A DNA stretch of 64,000 nt, taken from an uncultured bacterium (lineage in GTDB: Bacteria; Patescibacteriota; Saccharimonadia; Saccharimonadales; 2-12-FULL-41-12). Numbering within the stretch: position 1 is the first letter of the stretch; each line of letters opens with the position of its first letter. The notes beneath the pieces are model-generated. The model searched no databases. It saw only the letters and a list, made by a program, of their open reading frames with translations, and had not been told where the DNA came from. Below are positions 3,296 to 54,909 of this stretch, piece by piece. Made by a program: the position numbers and the translations under genes. The stretch is from positions 75,929 through 139,928 of the forward strand of contig CAWIAU010000002.1 of assembly GCA_963834265.1 (NCBI GenBank), in the 5' to 3' direction.

Positions 3296-3325
3296 ACCAT
3301 CAACCGTACCTGGCTTTCACACGAA

Positions 3326-3342
3326 TTGCAAATTATTCGCAA
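3326..3342. promoter_or_regulatory. Candidate Fur-family (Zur-like) operator, 8-1-8 inverted repeat TTGCAAAT-T-ATTCGCAA
   Basis: Imperfect palindrome (7 of 8 positions symmetric) in the 77-bp divergent intergenic region between the ZIP transporter and the Fur-family regulator. A related aattgcaat copy overlaps the regulator's start at 3363-3373. Confidence 0.35.
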
Positions 3343-3372
3343 ATTGTATGAAAAAGATGCTAAAATTGCAAT

Positions 3373-3798
3373 ATGGATGTAAAGGATAATGCAGAAATTA
3401 AGGAATTCAAAAAGTTGCTCAAAAAGCATCGGCAATATGTTACAAAAGCACGATTACGCTTGTTTATACTTTTGCAAAAACACTCTGCCCTGACAATCAA
3501 CGAACTTATCAGCTTACTGGATAAGCATGATCAGGCTACTATTTATCGTAATGTCAAAGTCTTCGAAAAATTGGGCGTAATCTCCAGATTGCAACTCGGA
3601 TGGCACTCGAAGCTGGAAATGAGCGATATGTTCCGGCATCACCATCATCACCTGACCTGTATCCGATGTAATCGTGTAATCATACTAAGAGAAGACCCGG
3701 TCATCGAACGGCAGATAGCTCAATTGTCCCGAGCCAAAAATTTCCGGCCTGTTGATCATCAGCTCGAAATCAGCGGTATTTGCGCTAAATGCCGATAA
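3373..3798 (+). CDS. Fur-family transcriptional regulator (probably zinc-responsive)
   Basis: 141 aa with an N-terminal winged helix (TKARLRLFILLQKH), an HHHHH..C..C motif and a C-terminal CAKC. It is divergent from the ZIP transporter. Confidence 0.8.
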   Translation: MDVKDNAEIKEFKKLLKKHRQYVTKARLRLFILLQKHSALTINELISLLDKHDQATIYRNVKVFEKLGVISRLQLGWHSKLEMSDMFRHHHHHLTCIRCNRVIILREDPVIERQIAQLSRAKNFRPVDHQLEISGICAKCR

Positions 3799-3805
3799 AT
3801 ATCGC

Positions 3806-4777
3806 TTAGCTTAATTTCGTACTCAGCGCGTATAATGCGCGCCTGCTATGACTCACCGTGATGGTTGTGTTTTCGGGTATGGTAGTAGCTTCCCCGTCGA
3901 ACTGTGCCCAGGCTCGCTCCCGGACAATAAAACGGACGGAAGTATGTTTAATTTCTCCGAGTTTTTTGCCACGCAGCAACCTCAGAATATAAGAAACTGT
4001 CGGAGCATTGTCAGAACGAACTGTGTAATAAAATGCTTTGTCGGTAAGTCGCACTGGTAGACGATCAATTTTTGCCATTCTGGAACCGTTGGAAAAAAGC
4101 TGTTCAAAAATTATGACCCTTTCCCCGTCTTGTTCCATATCAAAGCCGGGAGCAGCAAGCATAGCGCGTACGACACGTCCGAATTCATTCAGAATACCTC
4201 TGGCGATAGATTTACCGAAGATTCGCTTATCTGCTGCCGGTTTGGTCAGCTGATCCGCAGTATAGGCAGACGCACCAAAACTGGCATAGCACACGGCATA
4301 ACGAACAGTGTCTCCGGATGATTCTGTCGATTTGATGCTGAGAGGATGTATAGGGATAATCTGAGCCCGGGCAAACAAATTTTTTAACTTAACGCGGTAT
4401 GGCAACCCGTTCAGCATGCAAGACAGATCATTGGCATTGCCGCCCCAAAGTGGAAGAAGAATGATTTTGTGTAGATTAACACCCGGCATAATTGTCAACA
4501 GGGCATTTGCTACGAGATGTACCGTACCATCCCCTCCTCCTATACATAGCAATGTGCTCTTGTGAGCAGTATTCAGATTCTTTTGCAACATGCGTCTAAA
4601 ATGATTCAGATCAGGTACAGTTTCTATAATTTCCATCGGAATATCCGGAAATAACTTTGTTAGCTCCTTAGCACGGGTTTCTATGCGTTGGATATTGCTG
4701 CTCTGGGGATTAATAATAAGAATAATATGCGAGAAGCCGTGAATAGGTCCTGACCGTAATGTATGTAATAATCTCAC
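3806..4777 (-). CDS. Diacylglycerol/lipid kinase family protein (YegS/DagK-like)
   Basis: The CIGGGDGTVHLVANAL glycine-rich motif and overall length fit the DAGK catalytic-domain family. Confidence 0.75.
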   Translation of the reverse strand: MRLLHTLRSGPIHGFSHIILIINPQSSNIQRIETRAKELTKLFPDIPMEIIETVPDLNHFRRMLQKNLNTAHKSTLLCIGGGDGTVHLVANALLTIMPGVNLHKIILLPLWGGNANDLSCMLNGLPYRVKLKNLFARAQIIPIHPLSIKSTESSGDTVRYAVCYASFGASAYTADQLTKPAADKRIFGKSIARGILNEFGRVVRAMLAAPGFDMEQDGERVIIFEQLFSNGSRMAKIDRLPVRLTDKAFYYTVRSDNAPTVSYILRLLRGKKLGEIKHTSVRFIVRERAWAQFDGEATTIPENTTITVSHSRRALYALSTKLS

Positions 4778-4991
4778 TCCTTAAAGATAACGTATAACCC
4801 ACCCCAAAAAAAGTTCGGGCTGAAAAATGTGCTGTTTTGGCTGCAAAATTTGAACCACTTGTCAGCGTAACTTTGGTTATGCGTTCTCACGCTTCAACTT
4901 TTTCGCACAATATCTCTGTTTTTCACATCCAAAATTATTTCAGGTTGGTTTACGTCTTTCTTTTCTCTTTATAGTTATAGTCTTATATAGT

Positions 4992-5621
4992 ATGGGTATG
5001 GATTTTGTTGAACCGGTGCGGGCGTATGTACGCAAAGTTATCAGGTATCTTGCCGTCGGGCTCAACAAACTATTTCGAGGCAGGCTCAGTCCTGATATGG
5101 TCACAACGACTAGCTGGATAATGCATATTCCGATTGGAATATTAATTGGTTATGGCAAACTAGAGCTGGCGGCTGTTCTGTTGATTATTTTTGGATTGTT
5201 TGACGTGTTGGATGGCGAGCTTGCACGGCTGCAAAAAACGGCGAGTGAACGTGGCATGTTGTACGACGCCTCTACGGATCGAGTCAAAGAAGTTATTTTA
5301 TATAGCGGCGTCGCCTTTTGGCTGTCTGCGACAGAATATTCCTCGTGGACTTTTCTGGCGGTAATTGCCTGCGGTGCATCCATCACGGTTAGTTATGTTA
5401 AAGCTAAGGGTGAAGCAGCAATTGCAGTCAAAAATAAAAGTATCGGTCATCATGAGCTAAACCGAATGTTCAAAGAAGGAGTTGTAAGCTTTGAAGCCAG
5501 AATTTTTATTTTGATCCTAGGGCTTATATTCAACCAACTGCTTGTGACAACAGCTTTGATCGCCGTTTTATCAAGCTACACCGTATTTGAACGTCTTGTG
5601 ATTATAGGAAGGAAGTTATAG
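4992..5621 (+). CDS. CDP-alcohol phosphatidyltransferase family protein
   Basis: Contains the full signature D-x2-DG-x2-AR-x8-G-x3-D-x3-D (FDVLDGELARLQKTASERGMLYDASTD) and multiple TM helices. Confidence 0.8.
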   Translation: MGMDFVEPVRAYVRKVIRYLAVGLNKLFRGRLSPDMVTTTSWIMHIPIGILIGYGKLELAAVLLIIFGLFDVLDGELARLQKTASERGMLYDASTDRVKEVILYSGVAFWLSATEYSSWTFLAVIACGASITVSYVKAKGEAAIAVKNKSIGHHELNRMFKEGVVSFEARIFILILGLIFNQLLVTTALIAVLSSYTVFERLVIIGRKL

Positions 5622-5630
5622 GTATTTTGG

Positions 5631-6287
5631 ATGCATAAAGTTGATCTGCATACTCATTCATTTGTATCACCGGACGGGTCATTAACGGCAGATGACTATA
5701 AGCACATGCTTTTAACAGAAAAACTTAATTTTATTGCCGTAACTGATCATAATGAAGTTTCATTTGCCCTGAAATTGCATGCTGAAATCGGTGACCGGAT
5801 TATCGTTGGTGAAGAAATTATGACAAGCGAGGGAGAAATTATAGGATTATTCCTGCAGGAACGAATTGAACCTTATCTTAGTCCCGAAGAGACTATAGCT
5901 AAAATCAAAGTTCAGAATGGCTTGGTTTATATTCCCCATCCCTTTGAATCATCGCGGCGTAGCGGTGTCTCAGAAGCAACGCTTAGCCGGATAGTTAAAG
6001 ATGTGGATATCCTGGAAATCTATAATGGTCGGGCATATATTCAGGATAAATCGAAGCAGGCCCGGCTTTGGGCTGATGAACATTTCAAGCCCGGTGCAGC
6101 CAGCAGTGATGCCCACGGGCGCTTGGGCTGGGGCAAAACCTACAGTAGTATTCTGGCTCCGGCCACGAGGCAAAGCCTGGTTCATCTGATAAGTTCTGCC
6201 GAATTATCAGAACGCCGGGTAGGATTACGCGGAGCTATGTATCCGGCCATAAACAGAACGAGAAAACACCCTGGACCCCTTTCCTGA
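5631..6287 (+). CDS. PHP-domain metal-dependent phosphoesterase
   Basis: Shows an N-terminal DLHTHS motif, internal VTDHN and IPHP motifs, and SSDAH near the C-terminus. The stop overlaps the next start at 6287. Confidence 0.75.
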   Translation: MHKVDLHTHSFVSPDGSLTADDYKHMLLTEKLNFIAVTDHNEVSFALKLHAEIGDRIIVGEEIMTSEGEIIGLFLQERIEPYLSPEETIAKIKVQNGLVYIPHPFESSRRSGVSEATLSRIVKDVDILEIYNGRAYIQDKSKQARLWADEHFKPGAASSDAHGRLGWGKTYSSILAPATRQSLVHLISSAELSERRVGLRGAMYPAINRTRKHPGPLS

Positions 6288-6838
6288 TGCATGATATTTT
6301 ATACGCCCTATGGCTTTTTTTGCCAGCAGGCGCAGCCAACGTCACACCAATTCTCGTAACCCGAATGCCGTATCTGGAAAAATGGACTTCCCCTATAGAT
6401 TTTGGTTGTAAGTTCAGAGGCCATCGTCTCTTCGGGCCTAATAAAACATGGCGGGGACTTATTACCGGTACTTTTATAGCCATTCTGACTTTTATACTTC
6501 AGCACAAAATCGCACCTGAACTCGGTAATTTTTCAAATTATTTAATGTCTGTGGGATACATGGAACTTCCTGTTGTACTTGGATTTTTGCTGGGGTTCGG
6601 AGCTCTTGCCGGTGATGCACTAGAAAGTTTTTTTAAGCGACAGCGTGGTATAAGACCCGGTGGCAGCTGGCCGGCCTTTGATCAGATGGACTATATAATT
6701 GGTAGCAGTCTGTTTGCTGCGGTGATCATAATATTGCCCCTGCATATATATGTATGGGTATTTATAATCTGGTTTGTGATGCATCTGATGTTCAGCTATA
6801 TCGGCTACCGGACAGGTCTGAAGAAAACAGCGATTTAA
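6287..6838 (+). CDS. CDP-archaeol synthase (CarS/DUF46) family CTP-transferase homolog
   Basis: The blocks WLFLPAGAANVTP ... SPIDFG ... GPNKTWRG ... FGALAGDALESFFKRQRG ... FDQMDY align along the whole length with archaeal CarS as I remember it. Confidence 0.8.
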   Translation: MHDILYALWLFLPAGAANVTPILVTRMPYLEKWTSPIDFGCKFRGHRLFGPNKTWRGLITGTFIAILTFILQHKIAPELGNFSNYLMSVGYMELPVVLGFLLGFGALAGDALESFFKRQRGIRPGGSWPAFDQMDYIIGSSLFAAVIIILPLHIYVWVFIIWFVMHLMFSYIGYRTGLKKTAI

Positions 6839-6953
6839 TAAACGACGGAAAACATGAGACCCCGGAATTAACCGAGGTCTATGGAAGCCTCACACTTCCG
6901 GTTATTACTGTATGCGCTTATGGCAAAAATGGCAATAGATGCAAATCGAATGG

Positions 6954-8771
6954 TTACTTACGTTTGCGCTTATTCGGATCAAGTTCTTTTTTACGAAGTC
7001 TCAGACTTTTAGGTGTGACCTCCAGCAGTTCATCATTTTCGATGAAGTCGATACATTGCTCCAGACTGAAGATGGTCGGAGGAGTCAGCTGCACTACACC
7101 GTCACTGCTACTACTGCGCATATTGGTAAGCTGTTTACCGCGACAGGCGTTGATCTCCATATCTTCGCTTCGGGTGTTAAGTCCGATTATCTGCCCCGGA
7201 TACACCTTTACCCCGGCGCCAATAAAACAGGTTCCCCGTGCTTCAACATTCTGCAGGGCATAGGCAGTTGTGGCGCCTGCTTCATAAGAAATAAGCACTC
7301 CGTTTCTAAGCTGTTGCAACGGCGAACCCATGGGTTGGTATCCGACCATAAGACTATGCATAATGATCGTACCTTTGGTATTGGTCAGCAATATGCCTTT
7401 CGCGCCCAGTAGCGCACGTGTAGGCAGCTCATAAATAAGTTTGGTAACGCCCTTGGGACTTGCAAACTGCTCTTTAAGAGTCGCCCGACGCGAACCAAAC
7501 TCCTGCTGAATTGTACCGACGTGCTCAGCGGGAACTTCTATAATTAATTCTTCTACCGGTTCTTCGGTTTTGCCATCTTTCTCCCGGGTTACTACCTGAG
7601 GTCGGCCAACTTCAAATTCGAAACCTTCACGGCGCATTGTTTCGATCAGTACGCTTAGGTGCAACTCGCCCCGGCCTGCCACCAGAAAGCCGATTCCTTC
7701 TTCTTCTACTTGCAGGCCAACATTTATTTCCAGTTCTTTTTTCAGACGATCACCAATTTGTCTGCTGGTTGTAAATTCGCCTTCAGTCCCCTTTAGCGGA
7801 CTGGTATTAGGTCCAAGATAAATCTTCAGGGTTGGTGCTTCAACTTCCAGTACCGGCAGCGCTTCCGGTTTATCAGCGTCGGCAATTGTTTCGCCAATCT
7901 GAGCATCGGCAAGACCGGTAAGCTGGACTATATCACCGGCCACACCCTCAGCAACTTCATACCTGCTAACGCCGTGACTCATAAAGACCAGATCTATCTT
8001 ACCTTTGACGATGCTGCCATCTTTTTTGCACAATGACACGTTGCTGCCGGCTTTTATCCCCCCGCGGGTTATACGGCCTATAGCATATTTGCCCTTGAAA
8101 CTATCCCACGACAAAGCTGTAACAAGCATCTGAAAGGGTTTATTCAGTTCGACTACCGGCGCTGGTACATGCTGCGCAATTGCTTCAAAGATCGGCTCAA
8201 GATCAGCTTTGCCACCCGGATTTGTCGGTTTTTTTTGCCATGCTTTTCCTTCGCGTCCTATTGCATAGTACACAGGATAATGCAGTTGATCTTCATGCAC
8301 TGCCAATTCAAGGAACAAGTCCGCGAGCTCATTTTCGACTTCGCTTAAACGACTGCCCGATTTATCAATTTTATTTATAATTACAATTGGCTTGAGCTCA
8401 GCAGCCAGGGCTTTGCCAAGTACAAACTTGGTCTGAGGCATTGGCCCTTCCTGCGCATCAACAATCAGTAAACAGCCGTCGGCCATATTAAGCGTACGCT
8501 CAACTTCTCCGCTGAAGTCAGCATGTCCGGGCGTATCGATAATGTTAATACGGTAATCGCCGTGCTGAACAGCTGTTACTTTGGCAGTGATCGTAATACC
8601 CCGCTCCTTTTCCTGATCGCCGCTGTCCATGATCAGGTCCTGACTCATTTCGGCTTGGTTTTCACGAAAGGTCTGACTTTGTTTGAGCAGGCCGTCAACA
8701 AGAGTTGTTTTGCCATGGTCAACGTGAGCTATTACAGCAATATTGCGAATTTTTTGCGGATCCTGAGTCAT
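6954..8771 (-). CDS. typA: Translational GTPase TypA/BipA
   Basis: 605 aa with G1 [14 protein letters not shown] and NKID motifs, and the TypA-specific C-terminal domain. Confidence 0.95.
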
Positions 8772-11122: not shown

Positions 11123-13318
11123 ATGGATAAACAGAAATTTATTATCGTATCAAATCGATTGCCGATTAGCGTTGCCAAAGTTGACGGCAAACTTGTGTAT
11201 ACCTCCAGCCCGGGCGGATTAGCTACAGCTATGTCGTCACTAGGCAAAGATCCTTCAAAACGACTTTGGATCGGTTGGCCGGGTATTGCTTCTGATGATC
11301 TTACAACAGCAGAGAGACGTCAGATAACTAAAAGACTGCTGGCAGAGAACTACTATCCGGTATTTTTGACTGGTCAGCAGATTGCCGGTTTTTATGATGG
11401 TTACAGCAACGAGACAATATGGCCGTTGTTTCATTATTTTCAGGCTCACACCCAATACAGCGATACTTACTGGCAGGCCTACAAAGAAATTAATAATCTG
11501 TTCAAAATAGCAGTTACAAAAAACGCCCATAGCCGTGCAACTGTATGGGTACATGATTACCACCTGATGTTACTCCCTCAAATGCTCAGAACTATGCTTC
11601 CTAAAAGCTCTATTGGTTTTTTCCTGCATATTCCCTTCCCTTCTTTTGAACTTTTCCGCTTGTTGCCCAATCGCAAAGAAATTATTGACGGTTTGCTCGG
11701 AGCCAACTTAATTGGTTTTCATACTTATGATTATGTACGGCATTTTATAAACAGCGTTGTGCGTACTACCGGCTTTGAAAGTGAGCGGGGCGTTATTATG
11801 CTTGACGAGCGAACAGTCGTTGTGGACGCCTTTCCGATAGGCATTGACTATAAGAAGTTCACGGAAACCCTTGAAAGCCCGGAGACAAAAAAGGAAATTA
11901 AAATACTGCAGGACCACTATAAGGATACACAGATTATACTGTCAGTCGATAGATTGGATTACTCAAAAGGGATCATTAAGCGGCTCGAGGCATTCGAGCA
12001 ATTTCTGGAAAAGTATACACAGTTTCACAAAAAAGTCGTCCTTATTGTGATCGCTGTTCCTTCCAGAACTGATGTAGAAGCATATAAAAAGCTACGACGT
12101 ACTATCGAAGAGTCAGTGAGCCGGATCAATGGAATGTATGGCACTGTTGACTGGACACCCATTTCCTACCAGTTCAAGAACCTGGACTTTGTGCCATTGG
12201 TGGCACTATATGCACGGGCTGACTTAGCTATGGTAACTCCTCTCCGTGATGGTATGAATCTGGTTGCTAAAGAATATATCGCTTCCAAGCAACACTCTAC
12301 AGGCGTGTTAATTCTCAGCGAGCTTACAGGCGCCGTTGATGAGCTGCCGGAAGCGCTTCGCATTAATCCGAATGATACGCTATCGATTGTCCGCGCTATT
12401 AAGCATGCACTCACTATGCCAAAGATTACCCAGCTGGAGAAACTTGCATCAATGCAGAACCGTTTATCAAGTTATACCGTACAAAAATGGGCAGCCGATT
12501 TTATACACCAGCTGGAGTTATCGAATCGTACACAGATTGAACGCTATGACAAATTATTAACAGTAACAGAACAAAAAGAAATAGTTCAGGCATACAAAAA
12601 AGCAAAGCATCGTACCTTACTGCTGGATTACGATGGTACGCTATCCGCTTTCGTATCAAGTCCTATGCATACTAAAGCAGCACCATCAAAAACTCTGCTT
12701 CAAGTTCTGAAAGCATTAATCGATCAACCAAACACCACACTTTACATTATCAGCGGGCGGACAAGAGAGGCGCTGGATGAATGGTTCGGTCATCTGCCAA
12801 TCTCGTTGGTTGCAGAACATGGATTCTGGGTCAAACAAGGCGATACCTGGGCACAGGAAGATGTATCATTCAGGAAGCATAAGCAGGATGTATTACGCAT
12901 AATGCAAAGTTATGCGGAAAGAACACCCGGTGCCGTAATTGAAGAAAAGAATTTTTCGGTTGTATGGCATTACCGCAACACTCCGCCGGAACTTGCGTAT
13001 GCACGTAATGCAAGTTTACGGCACGATCTGCGCAATCTGTTGTCTGATAGTGATATCCGTGTTCTTGGTGGCAGCAAGATTATTGAAGTCAAGCCTCACG
13101 GCACAAACAAAGGTACGGTAGTGAGTGAGTTATTATTCGAAAATCAGTCCGATTTTGTTTTATCAGTTGGCGATGATGATACAGATGAAGATATGTTCGA
13201 AGTCCTGCCCGGATCGGCGTATTCGATAAAAGTAGGCCTCGGCAACACACGGGCCCGCTACCAGGTAGCATCAGTCAGCAAAGTCATAAATCTCCTCAAA
13301 ACCCTGTCTCAATCTTAA
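11123..13318 (+). CDS. Bifunctional trehalose-6-phosphate synthase / trehalose-6-phosphate phosphatase (GT20 + HAD fusion)
   Basis: 731 aa. The N-terminal ~470 aa are OtsA-like (VSNRLP, WVHDYHL, LRDGMNLVAKEY). The C-terminal part is HAD/OtsB-like (LLLDYDGTL ... GDDDTDEDMF). Confidence 0.9.
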   Translation: MDKQKFIIVSNRLPISVAKVDGKLVYTSSPGGLATAMSSLGKDPSKRLWIGWPGIASDDLTTAERRQITKRLLAENYYPVFLTGQQIAGFYDGYSNETIWPLFHYFQAHTQYSDTYWQAYKEINNLFKIAVTKNAHSRATVWVHDYHLMLLPQMLRTMLPKSSIGFFLHIPFPSFELFRLLPNRKEIIDGLLGANLIGFHTYDYVRHFINSVVRTTGFESERGVIMLDERTVVVDAFPIGIDYKKFTETLESPETKKEIKILQDHYKDTQIILSVDRLDYSKGIIKRLEAFEQFLEKYTQFHKKVVLIVIAVPSRTDVEAYKKLRRTIEESVSRINGMYGTVDWTPISYQFKNLDFVPLVALYARADLAMVTPLRDGMNLVAKEYIASKQHSTGVLILSELTGAVDELPEALRINPNDTLSIVRAIKHALTMPKITQLEKLASMQNRLSSYTVQKWAADFIHQLELSNRTQIERYDKLLTVTEQKEIVQAYKKAKHRTLLLDYDGTLSAFVSSPMHTKAAPSKTLLQVLKALIDQPNTTLYIISGRTREALDEWFGHLPISLVAEHGFWVKQGDTWAQEDVSFRKHKQDVLRIMQSYAERTPGAVIEEKNFSVVWHYRNTPPELAYARNASLRHDLRNLLSDSDIRVLGGSKIIEVKPHGTNKGTVVSELLFENQSDFVLSVGDDDTDEDMFEVLPGSAYSIKVGLGNTRARYQVASVSKVINLLKTLSQS

Positions 13319-13390
13319 GGAATTCTTTTGCAAAGAATCAAAACGTATCTTTTTTTGATAAAAAGACATGTTCTTCCGACGAAGAACCAA

Positions 13391-13640
13391 GTCGATACTT
13401 TTGTCTCCAGCAACAAAAGTATCCAAAAACGCCGCAGGCTTGAAAAGCTCTTTATGGTCTCATTGCCAAAGCCAACAATGCCTTGGACGACTCCTTCCGG
13501 TCGGTCCGAACTTTTATTAAGCTCTAAGGAATAAGTTCGGACTGGGTCCAAGGACTAGAATTGTTGTTTTGGCACTCGCCCATCAGGAGCTTCTCAGGCC
13601 TGGAGGGATCCAAGGAAAAATTACTAAAGATAGTTTTGGT
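13391..13640 (+). repeat. Left arm of a long imperfect inverted repeat; candidate structured RNA element (copy 1, sense to otsAB)
   Basis: Reverse-complementary to 14561-14803 in two conserved blocks that flank a copy-specific hairpin. Several internal helices are preserved by compensatory changes (see findings). Confidence 0.75.
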
Positions 13641-13747
13641 TTATAAAACGGCGTTTACTCAGATATGACTCCGCTCAGTACGATTGGTCTCAATCGGTTT
13701 CGTTTAACGCCGGGTATCAAACTATTCTAATTTTTAGAAAAATACTA

Positions 13748-13776
13748 TTGATTAAATAGCAATTGTGTGTTATTTT
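13748..13776 (+). promoter_or_regulatory. Candidate sigma70-type promoter (TTGATT - 17 nt - TGtTATTTT) giving a leaderless or near-leaderless transcript
   Basis: The -35-like TTGATT is at 13748-13753 and the extended -10-like TGTTATTTT ends at 13776. The ATG at 13782 is only 5 nt downstream, and no Shine-Dalgarno sequence is present. Confidence 0.4.
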
Positions 13777-13781
13777 AAAAA

Positions 13782-14455
13782 ATGACCCCCCCCATAACAA
13801 TAGATCCTGCCTTAGCCGCGGTAATTGAGGCTGCTAGGGAACCTTATGTAAAATTTGCGGAAGTAGCAGAAAAAGATGGTGTTAATCCGTTACCTATTCA
13901 AGAATTAGCTCAACAGGTAGGATATACAGCGGGATTGGCTTTTGTCCGGAATCTTGCTGTACAGTTGAGTCGATAAGAATAGCTGAAGAAATAGCAGACC
14001 GAAGTACTGCTCCGCAAAGTTATGCATTTATACCTTACACTCCTTACGAGATTACCGCTAGAACACTAACCGCAAAGCAGATACAGGAAAGCATACTTGA
14101 TGCCGGCAACGGTAAAGAATTATTAGATGTAGCAGCAGGCGTTATTGCTACGACTGATACTTTTACTAATGCCTACCTAACAACCGAAGCCAAAATTTCT
14201 AGACCATCGAGTATAGCTGCTATAAAGTTCATGCGTTCTAATGGTTTGATAGAAGATGTTGATCATCCAGAGAAAAAGAAAAATAAAAAATTTCGGCGAA
14301 CACCAATTTTTGATGAGTATGTTGGGTGTCTTCCAGCTTGGCAAAGAGAAATAAAACTTAGAACCCTTGAACATAAACTAGGCATGAACAGAGAAGGTGT
14401 GCTGGACTATTTAATTACTCTGGGCGGATTAATAGTTTCACCAGAACAAGAATAA
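13782..14455 (+). CDS. Hypothetical protein (~224 aa if joined) split over two frames; starts with a C8 homopolymer
   Basis: The 13782-13976 ORF (64 aa) overlaps a second frame that is open from 13886 to 14455, and the two read as one protein if a 1-nt shift occurs near 13886-13976. A C8 tract sits at 13786-13793, directly after the ATG. I recognise no family. Confidence 0.45.
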
Positions 14456-14560
14456 AGCTTTAATACTCGGATCCTGACAAGTATTTCCAAGAATGGATCA
14501 GCGCACAATCACGCTGGTTTATGTCATTGATTACTAAGCAGTTGTTTTTTTATAATAAAT

Positions 14561-14803
14561 CAAAATTATCTTTAGTAATTTTTCCTTGGATCCCTTCAGG
14601 CCTGAAAAGTTCCTGAGGGGCGAGTGTCGAAAGCACAATTATTAGCGAGGGGGTGTTTGAAGCTGTTTCACTCATTAGAAATTAATAGAAGAAACAGCAA
14701 GTTACTCGAGCATTGTGCTTTTCGACAATGAGACCATAACGAGCTTTTAAAGCCCGCGGCTCTTTTGGATACTTTTGCAGCTGCAGGGAAAAGTATCTCG
14801 AGT
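14561..14803 (-). repeat. Right arm of the long imperfect inverted repeat; candidate structured RNA element (copy 2, sense to metK)
   Basis: Its reverse complement aligns with 13391-13640. It lies directly 3' of the metK stop (14881) on the minus strand. Confidence 0.75.
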
Positions 14804-14880
14804 GGACTGCGAAGCAGGCTAATTGAAACTGGATTTATCTAATCACTAAACCCTAAAACCTAACCACTTTTCAAAACTTT

Positions 14881-16171: not shown

Positions 16172-17104
16172 TCAGGCCTCGCCGGTCATCTCGCGTGAAG
16201 TCTTAAATACTTTAGCATAAGTAAGGACTACGCGTCTACGCATTGCCCGGACCATGCGTTTTAATACCCTGAGAACATGAGGAGCCGCATAAAAAGCTCC
16301 TGCCGCGTAGCCGATACCCAGTAGAGCATCAACGACGTAATGCTCGCCCTGATAAACAGTACCGACGTAAATCAAAGCAGGATACAAAAGCGACAAAAAA
16401 CGCCATCGCGATTTGAGCAGAGTAATTATAAAAATTGCAAAAAGAGTTGAGAATGCAGCATGCAAACTCGGGACTGCTGCTACCGGATTGGGTGCAATTT
16501 TATTGTAGAGACTTGGAAAATCGTTCACGCCAAGAGCAAACCATACATCGCTCGAAATCCGCGTAACAGGCTCTATCAGTTTCGCATCACTGGCCATCCA
16601 CGGCGGAGCGGCAGGAAATAAGGCGTACGTTATGAAGCCTCCGATCATAAGCAGGGACAAGCTGGTTATAAAACGCCAGTAATGCCGGGGGAATTTTTTC
16701 CATATCACCACTGCTAGGGCTATAGGAAATACAAAATGCATCATATAAGCCAGATAAAATATAAAGTCGTACCATTGCACCTGACCATTCCACAGCCATT
16801 GCTGAAGGGTTGTTGTTGGTAATACCCCGCCGAACAGCTGGCGATCAAAATCAACCATGAACATAAAGTTTACCTTGTCATTCAGTCCGACAGCTATTCC
16901 CCTGAACGATTCATATATTAGTATAATGGCTACAAACGGCGCGAAGCGTTTAAGCATTTCGACAGCCTGGCTAAAACACATGAATAAAAATGTCAGAAAA
17001 ATCAATAATTTATCAGGAGTCGGAAAGCTGGGTGTCATCGCAAATATGACAGTACAGATAACGACTCCTGCTCCCCCTAAAATCTGAAACATCCGTGCCT
17101 GCAT
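16172..17104 (-). CDS. PAP2-superfamily membrane protein (PAP2_C / phosphoinositol-transferase-like)
   Basis: Polytopic membrane protein carrying PSLHAAFS ... YQGEHYVVDALLG, which are the C2/C3 motifs of the PAP2 superfamily. Confidence 0.7.
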   Translation of the reverse strand: MQARMFQILGGAGVVICTVIFAMTPSFPTPDKLLIFLTFLFMCFSQAVEMLKRFAPFVAIILIYESFRGIAVGLNDKVNFMFMVDFDRQLFGGVLPTTTLQQWLWNGQVQWYDFIFYLAYMMHFVFPIALAVVIWKKFPRHYWRFITSLSLLMIGGFITYALFPAAPPWMASDAKLIEPVTRISSDVWFALGVNDFPSLYNKIAPNPVAAVPSLHAAFSTLFAIFIITLLKSRWRFLSLLYPALIYVGTVYQGEHYVVDALLGIGYAAGAFYAAPHVLRVLKRMVRAMRRRVVLTYAKVFKTSREMTGEA

Positions 17105-25755: not shown

Positions 25756-25829
25756 TGGGGAGTGGCCAAGTGGTAAGGCACTGGGTTCTGGTCCCAGGAT
25801 CGGGGGTTCGAGTCCCTCCTCCCCAGCCA
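25756..25829 (+). tRNA. tRNA-Gln (anticodon CTG), CCA encoded
   Basis: Manual cloverleaf: acceptor TGGGGAG/CTCCCCA, D-arm GCC-AAGTGGTAA-GGC, anticodon stem CTGGG/CCCAG with loop TTCTGGT, and T-arm GGGGG-TTCGAGT-CCCTC. The discriminator is G, followed by CCA. Confidence 0.9.
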
Positions 25830-25837
25830 GATGCGAC

Positions 25838-25874
25838 AGCAGAATTTCAGACCTAAGTCCCTAATTCTGCTTTT
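25838..25874 (+). terminator. Stem-loop after tRNA-Gln (agcagaatt ... aattctgct + TTT)
   Basis: A 9-bp inverted repeat at 25838-25846 / 25863-25871 is followed by ttt. Confidence 0.5.
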
Positions 25875-25900
25875 GCATCAGCAAACAGAGAAATACTAAC

Positions 25901-25928
25901 AAAAAGAGTCGTTAATCCGACTCTTTTT
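25901..25928. terminator. Bidirectional rho-independent terminator (AAAAAGAGTCG-ttaatc-CGACTCTTTTT)
   Basis: A perfect 11-bp stem carries an A-run on the 5' side and a T-run on the 3' side. It lies between the tRNA and the 3' end of the recombinase remnant. Confidence 0.7.
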
Positions 25929-25935
25929 GTTTAGA

Positions 25936-27226
25936 TGCTTAGTCTGCGGTAGATCTGCTTATTCTTAACGAATAGTGGTAAGTTTAGACCTCGTATGAAA
26001 CCCGTCTTGTTCATGAATATTGTGCCTTGTCTAAGAACATAGCTCGCATAGTTTCTGAAATGTGCTCTTTCGGAGTGCTGTCAATTCCATGATCCTTTGA
26101 TAAGCTGGCTTGTAACGCGTTTGTATTGTTCGATCTTGTTGAATAATTGCTCGCTCGGCTCAATATCGTCGAATTCTCCCGCATCCGTCATTGCAAGATT
26201 TGTTCGGTGATCATGGTTGCTGTTATTGAGCGCTCCGGACAGTCAGGGTCTTTTGTCGATTTCGTGCACCGATAGTATACATGCCTGTTTCTGCCTCCGT
26301 CCGCTCGCTTTTTGAAATGCTCTTCGACCGTCAGCGTGAGCCACACGCCCCACAGTAGAATAGATGCTTGAACGGGAATTGTCTTTGATCCCCATGCTGG
26401 CTTTTCCGGTACTAGCGAGTCCATGCGTGACTCGAACAATGTCGAACAGTTCTTTTGTGATTATCGGCGGATGCTTACCCACATAGAGCGGACCTCCTGC
26501 GGGATATTCGAAATAGCCGTAGTAGAATGGGTTAGTCAAGGTTCTGTAGATCTGACTTAGCGACAATACAGCGCCAGACTTAGTTCTGAAGTCGATACTG
26601 TCCAAGCCAGTCTTTTATGGTACGCCGCTTTGGTGCAGTCAGACCTGAGCGTTCAAACATTTCCTTAACAATCGGTGCTCGATCGGTGTCCAGCACTATG
26701 TCTCGGACGCCACCGAAAGCTCGGTTTACATAACCAATTGGCGCTGCTCCCGGTCGCCAGCCCATCTCACATTTGGCACGTATGCCACGTTTGACGTTAA
26801 TACCACGATTATCGTTCTCGAGCTTGGCTTGAGAGCACAGGATCATCAGAAGGAACTTCTCGTTCGGCGTGTTGCTGAAGCTTTGTCCAAATGTACGGAT
26901 GCGCTGTAGTCGGTTTAAGTCCATTAAATCTACAAGAGACCCAAGATCTCCTGCATTTCTGCTTAGTCGATCCGGTGCCCAAGTCAGGATTGCGTTGTAT
27001 TCGCCGTTCCTCAAGTCGTGCAGCAAGTTCGTTGAATACCGGCCTATGACCAGACTCCTTTGCCGAGAAACTCTCTTGTTTGATGACAACTACATTCAGC
27101 TCTTCGCGTGTTGCCATAGCTTGCATTTCTTTGATTTGTGAATCGATCGACATTGCCTGTGCGTTCGTCAGACTCGCTCGATTTGCGGGCATAAAGACAG
27201 TATTTAAGTTGAGCAGTATTTTCCAT
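25936..27226 (-). pseudogene. Large serine recombinase (resolvase/invertase N-domain + recombinase + zinc-ribbon), multiply frameshifted
   Basis: Fragments lie in at least 5 frame segments: YCLYARKSSESDER (catalytic Ser region), SIDSQIKEM...RPVFNEL, ILTWAPDRLSRNAGD, GYVNRAFGG..., YYGYFEYP..., YYRCTKSTKDPDCP (zinc ribbon), and a C-terminal tail down to ~25936. Confidence 0.8.
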
Positions 27227-27290
27227 CAACAACAAGGTACCGCAAATCCAGGTAAAGTCTAGCTGTGATAACATCTTAAAAACAGATATA

Positions 27291-30200: not shown

Positions 30201-30380
30201 GACACACGACTTACAAATAGTCAGGATATTCTTTCAAATCAAGGCTATTTCCGTCAGACAACAGGTGAATACATCCTTGATAGTTTTGACAATGGAAGCT
30301 ACGATCTAAACGCTCGATTAGTCCGCAATCTAATAACAAACACTGCAGATGAATATTTGGCAGAATACCAAGGAGAATAA
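27291..30380 (+). pseudogene. hsdR: Type I restriction enzyme R subunit (HsdR), at least three frameshifts
   Basis: Shows the HSDR_N start (EDTRVKIPAIIHLTRLGY, FIEVKKPN), helicase motifs (HTQGSGKT, FIDEAHRS, TGTP, LLTGFDAPRL, QTLTRVNR), and a C-terminal KFDGDRKFAVIYKN. Frame breaks occur near 27753, ~29600 and ~30085. Confidence 0.85.
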
Positions 30381-31110
30381 ATGGAACACACAGATTTTTC
30401 AAATAAAGCAAAGCAACTTATTGACGAACTTAAGGGTATTTGTGCTAGTGCTGGGCTTGGTGGTGATGCGAACGAATACAAAATAGTTACCCAAAGTTTC
30501 TTGTATAAATTCTTAAACGACAAATTCTTGCACGAAGTTGGTAAGCTTGATCAAAGCCTGAAAACGTATGAAGACCTCAAGGCAATAGACAGCGATAAGT
30601 ATGATTTATTGATGATTAAAATCGGCACAAAGACTGCTCATCTCAAACCTGAGCATTTACTAGATTATTTATTTAAGCATCAGAACGATGGTGATTTTGC
30701 GAAACTATTCGATAATACCCTTAACGACATAGCAGTTGATAACTCCGATGTATTTTCTGTCCATACTGCCGGTAACACTGAGATTCGACTTTTTGAGGAA
30801 GAATTAATTGCTGATGCAGTTAACGACAAATCTCAACATGACATCACGGCACGTAAAATTATTAACAAACTTGCTGACAGTAAGTTTGAACTAGATGAAA
30901 TTTTATCGGCAGGCTTCGACTTTTTCTCAACAATGTTTGAGTATATGATCAAAGACTACAACAAGGATGGAGGTGGCAAATATGCCGAATACTACACGCC
31001 TCATTCAATAGCGAAAATTATGGCAGAAATTCTAGTCGGTGATGATACGCCAACTAACGTTACGGCATATGACCCAGCCGCAGGTTCAGGTACTTTGCTT
31101 ATGAACATCG
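30381..31110 (+). pseudogene. hsdM: Type I R-M methyltransferase subunit (HsdM), 3'-truncated
   Basis: Has the HsdM N-domain plus AdoMet motif I (YYTPHSIAKIMAEIL...YDPAAGSGTLLMN). Homology stops before the NPPF catalytic motif. No hsdS follows. Confidence 0.8.
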
Positions 31111-31112
31111 CA

Positions 31113-31326
31113 CAAGGCTGGCCAGAAGGTTGTTGCGCTTGTTGGTGATAATGCGACTATCAAGAGACTTAATAAAGAATCCGGATACTGGGTATTGGAG
31201 CCAGTTTCAAAAAACCCAATACATAAAAAATTAATTATGGTTGAGGACTTCGCGATACAGGGTGTGGCTGTGGATGTTGTTGAAACTAGAGGGACGGTAA
31301 GTGATGGCACTAGAGGATACGCTTAG
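31113..31326 (+). pseudogene. C-terminal fragment of an S24/LexA-type peptidase (phage-repressor-like)
   Basis: The third-frame translation VVALVGDNATIKRLNKESGYWVLEPVSKNPIHKKLIMVEDFAIQGVAVDVVETR has the typical S24 C-terminal beta-strand pattern. No N-terminal HTH or catalytic Ser region is present upstream. Confidence 0.45.
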
Positions 31327-54907: not shown

Positions 54908-54909
54908 AA

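What the first reader, a model, noticed from the sequence alone, without database searches (positions are those of the whole stretch)
3806..6838. Lipid-salvage-like cluster built around a bacterial CarS (CDP-archaeol synthase) homolog
A DagK-like lipid kinase (minus strand) faces a tightly packed plus-strand trio:
- a CDP-alcohol phosphatidyltransferase with the complete DGxxAR...G...D...D motif;
- a PHP phosphoesterase;
- a protein collinear with archaeal CarS, whose start overlaps the PHP stop.

Together these could convert scavenged diacylglycerol to a finished phospholipid in four steps. DAG would be phosphorylated to phosphatidate by the kinase. The CarS homolog, standing in for CdsA, would make the CDP-activated lipid. 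The transferase would attach the head group, and PHP would remove the phosphate.

An archaeal-type CTP-transferase replacing CdsA in a bacterium that probably cannot make fatty acids is biochemically untested. It is also relevant to how episymbionts remodel host lipids.
Basis: partly seen in the sequence, partly recalled or inferred. Interest (0 to 1): 0.55.

Follow-up and report, generated by a model that had tools for sequence, protein, structure and literature searches.

The report
Saccharibacteria phospholipid head-group operon with CarS
A tiny parasitic bacterium (Saccharibacteria) carries a conserved three-gene operon that probably rebuilds host-derived lipid into an inositol-type phospholipid, and it appears to use an archaeal-type enzyme (CarS) where other bacteria use CdsA; none of this has been tested at the bench.

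Summary
The plus-strand trio is packed tightly: a 9-nt gap, then a 1-nt TGATG overlap.

The window comes from a Saccharibacterium. CarS-like relatives occur in at least 566 species genomes. In 83 loci examined:
- 71 have a CDP-alcohol phosphatidyltransferase next to the CarS-like gene.
- 45 have the same transferase–PHP–CarS order as the window.
- 20 have a DAGK_cat lipid kinase nearby.
- Two database proteins are transferase::CarS fusions.

The CarS-like protein has the ApCarS fold and shares 17 invariant columns with archaeal CarS. It belongs to a separate bacterial clade and lacks the isoprenoid gene context seen next to archaeal CarS.

The transferase is closest to phosphatidyl-/archaetidyl-inositol-phosphate synthases, so the PHP protein is a candidate PIP phosphatase.

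In one complete relative (T. rhizospherense, Starr 2018) the same trio is present. Its 186-aa CarS-like gene is the only "phosphatidate cytidylyltransferase" hit, and that genome has no GGGPS, DGGGPS or glycerol-3-phosphate acyltransferase.

Most likely the operon runs phosphatidate → CDP-diacylglycerol → PIP → PI. Substrates are inferred, not shown. The pathway outline was already published; recognising the enzyme as CarS-type and the PHP assignment appear to be new. I rate it a new variant of a known kind, of moderate interest.

The parts
3806..4777 (-). DAGK_cat-family soluble lipid kinase (divergent YegS/Rv2252/BmrU/DgkB-like). It is transcribed divergently from the trio and is the proposed supplier of phosphatidate.
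   Evidence: PF00781 scores 35.7 bits against GA 23.6. NCBIfam lipid-kinase models score 24 bits or less, far below their cutoffs. The GGDGT and GGNAND motifs are visible in the translation. The only PDB hit is YegS 2p1r, E 0.067. Homologues lie near the CarS-like gene in 12 of 80 loci. A second DAGK_cat subfamily sits 20 bp upstream of CarS in the type-B architecture.
4778..4991 (.). 214-bp divergent intergenic region between the kinase and the trio. It presumably holds both promoters.
   Evidence: This is inferred from gene orientation only. The sigma-70 consensus scan of 3300-7100 found no more sites than shuffled sequence (9 found, 8.8 expected).
4992..5621 (+). Type-A CDP-alcohol phosphatidyltransferase, similar to phosphatidylinositol-phosphate and archaetidylinositol-phosphate synthases.
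   Evidence: PF01066 scores 52.7 bits. The best NCBIfam models are AIP synthase (87.7 bits) and PIP synthase (86.5 bits), both below their cutoffs of 180 and 170; PssA, ClsA and the archaeal serine synthase score 21 bits or less, and PgsA is not listed. The best solved structures are mycobacterial PIP synthases 6h53 and 6wm5 (E about 1e-18 with the family profile). The 8-residue signature is present (7 of its residues appear in the family's invariant or nearly invariant lists). S134, K137 and R201 align with MtPIPS S132, K135 and R195, which are inositol-phosphate-binding residues. R170 probably corresponds to R155, by manual alignment only.
5631..6287 (+). Stand-alone PHP-family metal-dependent phosphoesterase. 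It is the candidate phosphatase for the phosphorylated head group (PIP to PI).
   Evidence: PF02811 scores 24.2 bits (GA 26.4). The CehA/McbA domain model scores 50.4 bits. The AF2 model has pLDDT 92.0 and matches PHP structures on Foldseek: 7ug9 (E 6.6e-11), 2anu, 3e38 and 2yb1. H7, H9, D15, H40, E62, H103, N132, D160 and H162 are invariant across 29 homologues. PHP accompanies the type-A transferase in 45 of 51 loci but type-B alone in 3 of 20.
6287..6838 (+). CarS-like CTP:lipid-phosphate cytidylyltransferase (bacterial subfamily of PF01864). It is the proposed CDP-diacylglycerol synthase. Its start overlaps the PHP stop by 1 nt.
   Evidence: PF01864 scores 111.5 bits. NF003114, the archaeal CarS equivalog, scores 130.8 bits against a cutoff of 148. 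The PDB profile hit to ApCarS 5guf has E 1.6e-19. The AF2 model has pLDDT 90.4, and its only significant Foldseek match is 5guf (TM 0.70/0.80, rmsd 2.9 A); CdsA 4q2g is not significant. Seventeen columns are invariant across bacterial and archaeal sequences, including N18, D38, T54, D110, K117, R118, D132, Q133 and H166. The bacterial sequences form a separate clade with 100/100 NJ bootstraps.

Best explanation
This is a conserved Saccharibacteria operon for making a CDP-activated phospholipid and giving it a new head group. The cell does not build the lipid backbone itself.

1. The 5-helix CarS-like membrane enzyme uses CTP to convert a lipid phosphate into the CDP-lipid. The substrate is most likely diacyl-phosphatidate derived from the host. 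In this lineage it does the job of CdsA.
2. The type-A CDP-alcohol phosphatidyltransferase moves the phosphatidyl group onto a phosphorylated polyol, most likely L-myo-inositol-1-phosphate, giving phosphatidylinositol phosphate.
3. The PHP phosphoesterase, encoded between the two and translationally coupled to CarS, removes the terminal phosphate to give phosphatidylinositol.
4. The divergently transcribed DAGK_cat kinase can feed the pathway by phosphorylating diacylglycerol. It is an accessory, not part of the core operon.

Shown here: the gene identities, the folds, the conserved catalytic residues, and the gene linkage across species. Inferred: every substrate and product.
For: **Linkage**
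- A CDP-alcohol transferase lies next to the CarS-like gene in 71 of 83 loci, in two independent architectures. Type A is transferase-PHP-CarS in one direction, in 45 loci. Type B has the kinase divergent upstream and a second transferase subfamily convergent downstream, in 22 loci.
- Two cluster representatives are CDP-OH_P_transf::CarS-like fusion proteins.
- The PHP stop and CarS start overlap by 4 or 8 nt in most loci and by 1 nt in the window.
- PHP tracks the type-A transferase: 45 of 51 loci against 3 of 20 (Fisher p = 8e-9, not corrected for phylogeny). This fits a phosphatase acting on the type-A product.

**CarS-like enzyme**
- It has the CarS fold and keeps the polar residues that are conserved in archaeal CarS.

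**Transferase**
- It ranks with PIP and AIP synthases in NCBIfam and in the PDB, and keeps the Ser/Lys/Arg residues shown to bind inositol phosphate in MtPIPS.

**Replacement of CdsA**
- The window has no CdsA signature.
- In the complete T. rhizospherense genome the same trio is genes _1167, _1166 and _1165. Gene _1165 (186 aa) is the only K00981 hit. There are no GGGPS/DGGGPS KOs, and 'glycerol-3-phosphate' appears only in the pgsA name.

**Diacyl rather than isoprenoid context**
- DAGK_cat kinases are neighbours, and a PlsC-type acyltransferase lies nearby in L081.
- The window's only detected UbiA-family gene is heme O synthase (339.5 bits, cutoff 285).
- Archaeal CarS genes sit beside archaeal mevalonate-pathway genes and lack PHP or transferase neighbours.
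Against: - Purified archaeal AfCarS strongly prefers DGGGP over phosphatidate and cannot complement an E. coli cdsA mutant (review PMC9385802). Activity on phosphatidate would therefore need a changed specificity that sequence cannot show.
- No inositol-1-phosphate synthase was found in the window, and no K01858 appears in the T. rhizospherense table. The acceptor would have to be scavenged, or it is a different molecule.
- The transferase scores only about half the NCBIfam equivalog cutoffs.
- About 9 loci have PHP-CarS with no transferase in view (some sit at contig ends). PHP may therefore be tied to CarS itself rather than to the transferase.
- Absence of CdsA rests on one published KEGG table and one 64-kb window, not on a genome census.
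- The kinase is near the CarS-like gene in only 20 of 83 loci.
Confidence: 0.55

Rival explanations
1. The reaction scheme is the same, but the head group is not inositol. The type-A transferase would use glycerol-3-phosphate or another phosphorylated alcohol, for example a PGP-synthase-like reaction, and PHP would dephosphorylate that product.
For: No MIPS was found in the window or in the T. rhizospherense table. The transferase scores far below the PIP and AIP synthase equivalog cutoffs. The two arginines would bind the phosphate of any phosphorylated acceptor.
Against: PgsA, PssA and ClsA models score 21 bits or less or are not listed, against about 87 bits for the AIP and PIP synthase models. 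The S134/K137 equivalents of the MtPIPS inositol-site residues are present. T. rhizospherense has a separate pgsA-type gene elsewhere (K00995). Starr et al. report PimA-like mannosyltransferases that would need PI.
Confidence: 0.2
2. PHP is not the head-group phosphatase. It could serve CarS directly by hydrolysing pyrophosphate or a nucleotide by-product. Alternatively it could be a phosphodiesterase that releases phosphatidate or diacylglycerol from scavenged host phospholipids upstream of CarS.
For: The PHP-CarS pair is the tightest link, with overlapping stop and start codons, and it persists in about 9 loci where no type-A transferase is visible. The nearest solved relatives are nucleases and nucleotide phosphatases: RNase AM 7ug9 and the 3',5'-bisphosphate nucleotidase-like 2yb1. 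KEGG assigns the T. rhizospherense orthologue to K07053.
Against: PHP presence follows the type-A transferase (45 of 51 loci) and not the type-B transferase (3 of 20), although the CarS-like gene is present in all of them. Structural matches are at fold level only (14-23% identity), so they say little about substrate.
Confidence: 0.15
3. The protein is a genuine CDP-archaeol synthase. Saccharibacteria would then make or remodel isoprenoid ether (archaeal-type) lipids, and the trio would be an archaetidylinositol pathway.
For: The family, the fold and the catalytic residues are those of CarS. The transferase scores marginally best against archaetidylinositol-phosphate synthase. Characterised CarS prefers DGGGP.
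Against: No GGGPS or DGGGPS KO appears in the complete T. rhizospherense table. The window's UbiA gene is heme O synthase. Neighbours are DAGK_cat kinases and a PlsC-type acyltransferase, not the isoprenoid genes seen beside archaeal CarS. The bacterial proteins form their own clade with two lineage-specific insertions.
Confidence: 0.05
4. The CarS-like protein is a CTP-dependent lipid kinase, like dolichol or phytol kinases of the same superfamily. It would phosphorylate a polyprenol or diacylglycerol instead of making a CDP-lipid.
For: It belongs to the same CTP-transferase superfamily, with a partial PF01148 match of 34.2 bits. That the superfamily contains CTP-dependent kinases is my own knowledge.
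Against: It is much closer to CarS than to any other family, both in sequence and in fold. Its constant partners are CDP-alcohol transferases, which need a CDP-activated donor, and two fusion proteins join the two domains. A separate ATP-dependent lipid kinase is already encoded nearby.
Confidence: 0.05

Closest known systems
Archaeal archaetidylinositol pathway: CarS (EC 2.7.7.67; ApCarS, PDB 5GUF), then archaetidylinositol-phosphate synthase, then AIP phosphatase
   Same: The cytidylyltransferase belongs to the same family and has the same fold (PF01864; TM 0.70/0.80 to 5guf; 17 shared invariant columns). The transferase scores best against the AIP synthase model. The reaction logic is the same: CDP-lipid, then a phosphorylated inositol lipid, then dephosphorylation.
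   Different: The bacterial proteins form a separate clade: 32% identity to archaeal CarS against 52% within the clade, with 100/100 bootstraps. They carry two lineage-specific insertions, fall below the NCBIfam equivalog cutoff, and have no isoprenoid ether-lipid genes around them. Archaeal CarS genes are not clustered with a transferase or PHP in the 3 contexts examined. The expected substrate is diacyl rather than isoprenoid.
Actinobacterial phosphatidylinositol pathway: Rv2252-type DAG kinase, CdsA, PgsA1/PIP synthase (PDB 6H53, 5D92), then an unidentified PIP phosphatase
   Same: The transferase is most similar to mycobacterial PIP synthases among solved structures and keeps the inositol-phosphate-site residues. 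A DAGK_cat kinase of the YegS/Rv2252/BmrU family is a neighbour. The pathway is two-step, through PIP.
   Different: CdsA (about 270 aa, 9 TM, PF01148) is replaced by a 183-aa, 5-helix CarS-type enzyme. A PHP gene sits where a phosphatase is needed, whereas Clarke et al. 2015 describe the phosphatase as unidentified. That Rv2252 contributes to PI-mannoside synthesis is my own recollection of Owens et al. 2006 and was not checked here.
Bacteroides thetaiotaomicron inositol-lipid cluster BT_1522-BT_1526 (Heaver et al. 2022, PMC9246714)
   Same: It is an operon-like cluster combining a PIP synthase with a dedicated PIP phosphatase. The window also encodes a PAP2_3 protein weakly similar to the BT_1522-type phosphoinositol-dihydroceramide synthase model.
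   Different: The Bacteroides phosphatase is PgpA-like (BT_1525), not PHP. That cluster includes MIPS and uses the cell's ordinary CdsA. The present cluster has no MIPS and does include the CDP-lipid synthase.
Metabolic reconstruction of 'T. rhizospherense' (Starr et al. 2018, PMC6031116)
   Same: The same three genes lie in the same order (_1167, 210 aa; _1166, 215 aa; _1165, 186 aa). The authors also propose phosphatidate to CDP-diacylglycerol to PI, PGP or cardiolipin in a Saccharibacterium that cannot make fatty acids.
   Different: That paper labels the 186-aa gene simply as phosphatidate cytidylyltransferase, on a weak K00981 hit of 31.7 bits. It does not note its CarS nature, leaves the PHP gene as K07053/COG0613 with no pathway role, and does not describe operon conservation.

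Membership tests
CarS / CDP-archaeol synthase (PF01864, NF003114, EC 2.7.7.67) | Full-length match to the Pfam family model above the gathering score | tested here: met
   PF01864 scores 111.5 bits against a cutoff of 22, covering profile positions 5-172 of 175.
CarS / CDP-archaeol synthase (PF01864, NF003114, EC 2.7.7.67) | Reaches the curated NCBIfam equivalog cutoff used to name a protein CDP-archaeol synthase | tested here: not met
   NF003114 scores 130.8 bits against a cutoff of 148.
CarS / CDP-archaeol synthase (PF01864, NF003114, EC 2.7.7.67) | Five-helix membrane fold of ApCarS | tested here: met
   The AF2 model has pLDDT 90.4. Foldseek against the PDB gives 5guf as the only significant hit (E 4.1e-5, TM 0.70/0.80, rmsd 2.9 A).
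CarS / CDP-archaeol synthase (PF01864, NF003114, EC 2.7.7.67) | Conserved polar residues of the CTP/metal cavity shared with archaeal CarS | tested here: met
   Seventeen columns are invariant across 17 bacterial and 15 archaeal sequences, including N18, D38, T54, D110, K117, R118, D132, Q133 and H166; K53 and D135 are at 90% or more. Which of these contact CTP or Mg in 5GUF was not checked against the structure paper, which is not held.
CarS / CDP-archaeol synthase (PF01864, NF003114, EC 2.7.7.67) | Substrate is DGGGP (unsaturated archaetidic acid), supplied by GGGPS and DGGGPS | tested here: not met
   The enzyme's substrate cannot be tested with these tools. The supplying genes are missing: there are no K17104/K17105 entries in the complete T. 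rhizospherense table, and the window's detected UbiA gene is heme O synthase.
CarS / CDP-archaeol synthase (PF01864, NF003114, EC 2.7.7.67) | Groups within archaeal CarS in a phylogeny | tested here: not met
   In an NJ tree the bacterial sequences are monophyletic and split from the 15 archaeal CarS in 100 of 100 bootstraps. The archaeal sample is mostly TACK with a few Euryarchaeota and no DPANN, and no ML tree was made.
CdsA / CDP-diacylglycerol synthase (PF01148) | Full-length PF01148 match, the CdsA signature motif (K-R-x-K-D...H-G-G-x-x-D-R-x-D), and about 9 TM helices in about 270 aa | tested here: not met
   PF01148 matches only profile positions 167-231 of 264 (34.2 bits). No CdsA signature occurs in any frame of the window. 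The protein is 183 aa with 5 long helices. TmCdsA 4q2g is not a significant structural match (E 4.6).
CdsA / CDP-diacylglycerol synthase (PF01148) | CTP:phosphatidate cytidylyltransferase activity | not testable with these tools
   Indirect support only: it is the sole K00981-type gene in one complete relative, and its neighbours are CDP-alcohol transferases and lipid kinases.
PIP synthase / AIP synthase (class I CDP-alcohol phosphotransferase) | Eight-residue signature D1xxD2G1xxAR...G2xxxD3xxxD4 | tested here: met
   The window sequence reads D71-V-L-D74-G75-E-L-A78-R79...G88-M-L-Y-D92-A-S-T-D96. Seven of the eight positions are listed as invariant or nearly invariant in 22 family members.
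PIP synthase / AIP synthase (class I CDP-alcohol phosphotransferase) | Residues that bind inositol phosphate (MtPIPS S132, K135, R155, R195; Clarke 2015) | tested here: inconclusive
   S134 and K137 align with S132 and K135. R201, which is invariant, aligns with R195 in the profile alignment. R170, nearly invariant, matches R155 only in my manual alignment across a 13-residue insertion. K137 is not invariant in the family.
PIP synthase / AIP synthase (class I CDP-alcohol phosphotransferase) | Reaches a curated equivalog cutoff | tested here: not met
   NF040950 scores 87.7 against 180, NF045883 86.5 against 170, and NF052561 70.1 against 350. These are nevertheless the top-ranked families.
PIP synthase / AIP synthase (class I CDP-alcohol phosphotransferase) | The genome supplies L-myo-inositol-1-phosphate (MIPS) | tested here: not met
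   No MIPS domain was found among 44 window ORFs scanned. K01858 does not occur in the T. rhizospherense table. The rest of the window's own genome is not available.
PHP-domain phosphoesterase (PF02811 superfamily) | PHP fold (distorted TIM barrel) and a conserved metal-ligand set | tested here: met
   Foldseek hits are 7ug9, 2anu, 3e38, 2yb1, the Pol III PHP domains and YcdX. H7, H9, D15, H40, E62, H103, N132, D160 and H162 are invariant. Comparison with the nine YcdX ligands, where D15 and N132 replace two histidines, rests on my memory of YcdX. The Pfam score of 24.2 is just under GA 26.4.
PHP-domain phosphoesterase (PF02811 superfamily) | Activity as a lipid head-group (PIP) phosphatase | not testable with these tools
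   Only co-occurrence with the type-A transferase supports this (45 of 51 loci against 3 of 20). The one known bacterial PIP phosphatase is PgpA-like, not PHP.
DAGK_cat lipid kinases (DgkB / YegS / Rv2252 / BmrU) | PF00781 catalytic domain with the GGDGT nucleotide-binding loop | tested here: met
   PF00781 scores 35.7 bits against 23.6. The translation contains 'IGGGDGTVHL' and 'WGGNANDL'.
DAGK_cat lipid kinases (DgkB / YegS / Rv2252 / BmrU) | Reaches a curated lipid-kinase model cutoff, or has a defined substrate | tested here: not met
   The best NCBIfam score is 24 bits against cutoffs of 118-505. The substrate is unknown.

The most novel reading that the evidence does not exclude
An entire bacterial lineage (Saccharibacteria and some neighbouring CPR groups; at least 566 species genomes carry the gene) would have dispensed with CdsA. 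It would use a re-specialised, archaeal-type CarS enzyme as its only CDP-lipid synthase, acting on host-derived diacyl-phosphatidate. In the same operon, a PHP-family enzyme would be the long-missing type of PIP (or AIP) phosphatase, giving these episymbionts a self-contained module that converts stolen host lipid into phosphatidylinositol-based envelope lipids.
Probability: 0.4. Interest if true: 0.7.

Novelty: new variant of a known kind. Interest (0 to 1): 0.55.

Why it matters
**The lipid divide.** CarS and CdsA are treated as enzymes that help keep archaeal and bacterial membranes chemically distinct. Purified archaeal CarS prefers the isoprenoid substrate and cannot replace CdsA in E. 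coli. A large bacterial clade that relies on a CarS-type enzyme while handling fatty-acyl lipids would be a natural experiment. It would show which features set the lipid specificity of this fold, and it can be tested directly by complementation and in vitro assays.

**The PIP phosphatase.** The phosphatase that completes prokaryotic phosphatidylinositol synthesis was described as unidentified in Actinobacteria (Clarke 2015). The one bacterial example identified since then, in Bacteroides, is PgpA-like (Heaver 2022). A PHP enzyme locked into this operon is a concrete new candidate.

**Episymbiont biology.** Saccharibacteria cannot build lipids from scratch. This operon is the most conserved lipid module next to the CarS-like gene. 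It is therefore a good handle, and a possible vulnerability, for studying how these episymbionts turn host lipid into their own membrane.

Tried and rejected
**Look-ups that failed**
- An exact-protein contig look-up of the window's CarS-like protein, and of its 100%-identical database entry P0001, found nothing. I could not read the rest of the source genome, so I could not test genome-wide absence of cdsA, plsX/Y/C or fab genes for this organism.
- The ApCarS structure paper is not held, so contact residues were not checked against it.
- Coleman et al. 2019 does not mention CarS.
I rebuilt the alignment from database proteins.

**Literature searches**
- Searches for CarS or CDP-archaeol synthase together with Saccharibacteria, CPR or Patescibacteria returned only irrelevant co-mentions.
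- A search on PF01864/DUF46/K19664 was swamped by other DUF46xx names.

**Searches that added little**
- The profile search with the PHP family returned only close Saccharibacteria relatives and gave no view of distant or archaeal homologues.
- The promoter and terminator scan of 3300-7100 was no better than shuffled sequence.

**Ideas considered and rejected**
- The 214-aa ORF overlapping the start of Pyrolobus CarS is not a PHP homologue (BLASTP E 37).
- The window's UbiA gene is not a DGGGP synthase. It is heme O synthase and sits beside cyoABC.
- A soluble di-myo-inositol-phosphate pathway is unlikely. The transferase matches the DIPP synthase model less well than the lipid PIP and AIP synthase models (50 against 87 bits), there is no cytidylyltransferase domain for inositol phosphate, and CarS is a membrane lipid enzyme.

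Full report
**What is in the sequence**

- 3806-4777 on the minus strand, 323 aa.
- 4992-5621 on the plus strand, 209 aa.
- 5631-6287 on the plus strand, 218 aa.
- 6287-6838 on the plus strand, 183 aa.

The sequence confirms the tight packing. Nine bases separate the first and second plus-strand genes. The TGA stop of the second shares its A with the ATG of the third, reading TGATG.

Pfam and NCBIfam give these assignments:
- Kinase: DAGK_cat at 35.7 bits, above the gathering score.
- Transferase: CDP-OH_P_transf at 52.7 bits.
- PHP: 24.2 bits, two bits under the gathering score. The CehA/McbA metallohydrolase domain model scores 50.4 bits.
- CarS-like: 111.5 bits, collinear over the whole model. 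The archaeal CarS equivalog NF003114 scores 130.8 bits, under its cutoff of 148.

The complete CDP-alcohol signature DxxDGxxAR...GxxxDxxxD is present.

**Which organism**

The CarS-like protein has a 100%-identical entry in NCBI/ENA on a 192-kb contig. Its next relatives are 45-64% identical. The named ones are all Candidatus Saccharibacteria or Saccharimonadales.

The species-genome collection holds at least 566 loci that encode a relative. Nearly all of the best 80 are Saccharibacteria MAGs, with a few labelled Parcubacteria, Dojkabacteria or Levyibacteriota.

An exhaustive profile search found 372 cluster representatives (50% identity) at E ≤ 1e-30 and 2813 at E ≤ 0.001.

The rest of the window fits an aerobic, soil-type Saccharibacterium. 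It encodes cytochrome bo-type oxidase subunits with heme O synthase, superoxide dismutase, a GH10 xylanase and a trehalose-phosphate synthase/phosphatase fusion.

**Is the cluster conserved?**

I compared the four window proteins with 80 species loci by tblastn.
- The PHP gene is present beside CarS in 56 loci.
- The same transferase is present in 53 loci.
- Both lie in the window's order and orientation in the great majority of these loci.
- The kinase is nearby in only 12 loci.

The PHP stop and the CarS start overlap by 4 nt in 20 loci and by 8 nt in 13.

I then clustered all ORFs in 83 loci without prior assumptions. This revealed a second architecture:
- A different DAGK_cat kinase is transcribed divergently, 20 bp upstream of CarS.
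- A second CDP-alcohol transferase subfamily ("type B") lies convergent at the CarS stop.
- Both identities were confirmed by Pfam (71 and 57 bits).

Totals across the 83 loci:

| Feature next to the CarS-like gene | Loci |
|---|---|
| Any CDP-alcohol transferase | 71 |
| Type-A transferase | 51 |
| Type-A transferase with PHP | 45 |
| Type-B transferase | 22 |
| DAGK_cat kinase | 20 |
| None of these | 2 |

Two cluster representatives from the exhaustive search are single proteins. Each has an N-terminal CDP-OH_P_transf domain and a C-terminal CarS-like domain. These may be real fusions or merged gene calls. Either way they show adjacency.

The link between the CarS-like gene and CDP-alcohol transferases is therefore strong and arose in more than one arrangement. 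The link to lipid kinases is recurrent but looser.

**The CarS-like protein**

The AlphaFold model is confident (pLDDT 90.4). Its only significant match among solved structures is Aeropyrum pernix CarS, 5GUF (TM 0.70/0.80, rmsd 2.9 Å, 29% identity). Thermotoga CdsA is not a significant match.

I aligned 17 bacterial and 15 named archaeal sequences. Seventeen columns are invariant across both groups: P13, A14, N18, P36, D38, G50, T54, G57, G109, D110, F115, K117, R118, G125, D132, Q133 and H166. These include the GD...SFxKR...DQxD core. The cytidylyltransferase machinery looks intact.

The bacterial proteins also differ from the archaeal ones:
- They carry two insertions, at about residues 27-33 and 84-100.
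- They average 32% identity to archaeal CarS, against 52% among themselves.
- They split from the archaeal sequences in 100 of 100 neighbour-joining bootstraps.

Gene context also differs. Three archaeal carS genes have no PHP or transferase neighbour, and two of them lie beside archaeal mevalonate-pathway genes (AcnX, UbiD).

This is a distinct bacterial subfamily of the CarS family. It is not a recent transfer from any sampled archaeon. The archaeal sample lacks DPANN, and the tree is distance-based only.

**Does it stand in for CdsA, and on what lipid?**

No CdsA signature occurs in any frame of the window. A 64-kb window proves little, and I could not retrieve the rest of this genome.

The best available evidence is the full annotation table of the complete T. 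rhizospherense genome (Starr et al. 2018, Table S2).
- Genes _1167 (210 aa), _1166 (215 aa) and _1165 (186 aa) are the same trio.
  - _1167 has KO K17884 and was manually named PI synthase.
  - _1166 has KO K07053, the COG0613 PHP family.
  - _1165 has K00981, phosphatidate cytidylyltransferase, at only 31.7 bits.
- _1165 is the only K00981 hit in the genome.
- No GGGPS or DGGGPS KOs appear.
- The word "acyltransferase" does not occur.
- "Glycerol-3-phosphate" occurs only in the name of a separate pgsA-type gene.
- fabI is the only acyl-carrier-protein (ACP) enzyme name found in the table.

The paper itself states that the organism cannot make fatty acids. It proposes phosphatidate → CDP-diacylglycerol → PGP, cardiolipin or PI.

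The salvage outline is therefore already published. Two points appear to be new: that the enzyme is CarS-type, and the role of the PHP gene. No paper in the library connects CarS with Saccharibacteria or CPR.

One fact cuts against easy acceptance. Purified Archaeoglobus CarS strongly prefers DGGGP over phosphatidate and does not complement an E. coli cdsA mutant (review PMC9385802). Activity on diacyl-phosphatidate would require a shift in specificity. Only an assay can show that.

**The transferase and the PHP protein**

The type-A transferase ranks with inositol-phosphate-using enzymes.
- NCBIfam scores are 87.7 bits for archaetidylinositol-phosphate synthase, 86.5 for PIP synthase and 70.1 for the Bacteroides-type PIP synthase.
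- The cardiolipin and serine-transferase models score 21 bits or less, and PgsA is not listed.
- All scores are well under the equivalog cutoffs.
- The best solved structures are mycobacterial PIP synthases (E about 1e-18 with the family profile).

Clarke et al. 2015 showed that MtPIPS S132, K135, R155 and R195 form the inositol-phosphate site.
- The window protein has S134 and K137 at the aligned positions.
- The invariant R201 aligns with R195.
- The nearly invariant R170 matches R155, but only in my manual alignment across a 13-residue insertion.

A phosphorylated acceptor calls for a phosphatase, and the PHP gene sits exactly there.
- The PHP model (pLDDT 92) has the PHP fold.
- H7, H9, D15, H40, E62, H103, N132, D160 and H162 are invariant in 29 homologues, which indicates an active metal centre.
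- PHP accompanies type-A transferases in 45 of 51 loci but type-B-only loci in 3 of 20 (Fisher p = 8e-9, not corrected for shared ancestry). This points to a role downstream of the type-A enzyme rather than a general role with CarS.

For context, Clarke et al. 2015 called the bacterial PIP phosphatase unidentified. The one since identified, in Bacteroides, is PgpA-like.

Weak points:
- No inositol-1-phosphate synthase was found in the window or in the T. rhizospherense table.
- About nine loci show PHP-CarS with no transferase in view.

**The kinase**

The window's kinase has the GGDGT loop but matches named lipid-kinase models only faintly. The type-B-architecture kinase matches the YegS/Rv2252/BmrU family better, at 52.7 bits. 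A role in supplying phosphatidate from diacylglycerol is reasonable but unproven. Other routes to phosphatidate exist; Starr et al. annotate a phospholipase D.

**Conclusion**

The most likely function is a CDP-lipid head-group pathway that works on scavenged lipid:
- phosphatidate → CDP-diacylglycerol (CarS-like)
- → phosphatidylinositol phosphate (type-A transferase)
- → phosphatidylinositol (PHP)
- with an accessory lipid kinase.

Confidence is about 0.55 for the scheme and lower for inositol specifically.

Rivals:
- a different phosphorylated head group (0.2)
- a different job for PHP (0.15)
- genuine archaeal-type lipid synthesis (0.05)
- a CTP-dependent kinase (0.05)

Each gene belongs to a known family and the pathway logic is known. 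What is unusual is that a CarS-type enzyme takes the place of CdsA across a whole bacterial lineage, and that a PHP enzyme occupies the phosphatase slot. I classify this as a new variant of a known kind, with moderate interest (0.55).

Noticed in passing
window 16172-17104 (-): A PAP2_3 membrane protein (PF14378, 109.7 bits). Its only NCBIfam hit is the Bacteroides-type phosphoinositol-dihydroceramide synthase model, at 58.6 bits against a cutoff of 480. It could be a head-group transferase that uses phosphatidylinositol, which would fit PI production by the operon.
   Followed up: partly
related loci, e.g. L009:5093-7172, L064:5992-7214: A second, independent architecture occurs around the CarS-like gene. 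A DAGK_cat kinase is transcribed divergently 20 bp upstream, and a different CDP-alcohol transferase subfamily (type B; ambiguous between the AIP synthase, ClsA and PgsA models) lies convergent at the CarS stop. PHP is usually absent.
   Followed up: partly
proteins P0429 (330 aa) and P0469 (336 aa) from the exhaustive search: Single proteins with an N-terminal partial CDP-OH_P_transf domain and a C-terminal CarS-like domain. They may be Rosetta-stone fusions or merged gene calls.
   Followed up: partly
related loci, e.g. L065:6593-7324 (-), L043, L057: A PIG-L family gene (GlcNAc-PI / GlcNAc-inositol de-N-acetylase family, PF02585 at 104.6 bits) lies convergent immediately after the CarS-like gene in 15 loci of one sublineage. 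This hints at glycosylated inositol lipids. The window has no homologue.
   Followed up: partly
L081:4133-4879 (-): A PlsC-type 1-acylglycerol-3-phosphate acyltransferase domain protein lies about 4 kb upstream of the trio in a 1.19-Mb Saccharibacteria contig. The DAGK_cat gene sits directly after CarS in the same locus.
   Followed up: no
window 25756-31148: A tRNA-Gln gene (25756-25829) is followed by the lowest-GC stretch of the window (0.38-0.41). That stretch holds a type I restriction R-subunit-like gene and a short N6-methylase fragment. It may be an integrated island with decaying restriction-modification genes.
   Followed up: no
window 13319-14880: A stretch of about 1.5 kb with no ORF longer than 78 aa lies between the convergent trehalose-phosphate synthase/phosphatase fusion and metK. 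This is unusual for a compact genome. There is no Rfam match at gathering thresholds.
   Followed up: no
window 52302-53907 (+): An FAD-linked oxidase is split into two overlapping ORFs in different frames: FAD_binding_4 at 52302-52829 and FAD-oxidase_C at 52801-53907. This suggests a frameshift, a pseudogene or a sequencing error.
   Followed up: no
window 11123-13318 (+) and 53990-58955 (+): The first is a fused trehalose-6-phosphate synthase/phosphatase (GT20 plus Trehalose_PPase). The second is a cytochrome bo-type oxidase operon (COX2, COX1, COX3) followed by heme O synthase, with Fe/Mn superoxide dismutase at 61534-62133. These are aerobic traits for a reduced episymbiont genome.
   Followed up: no
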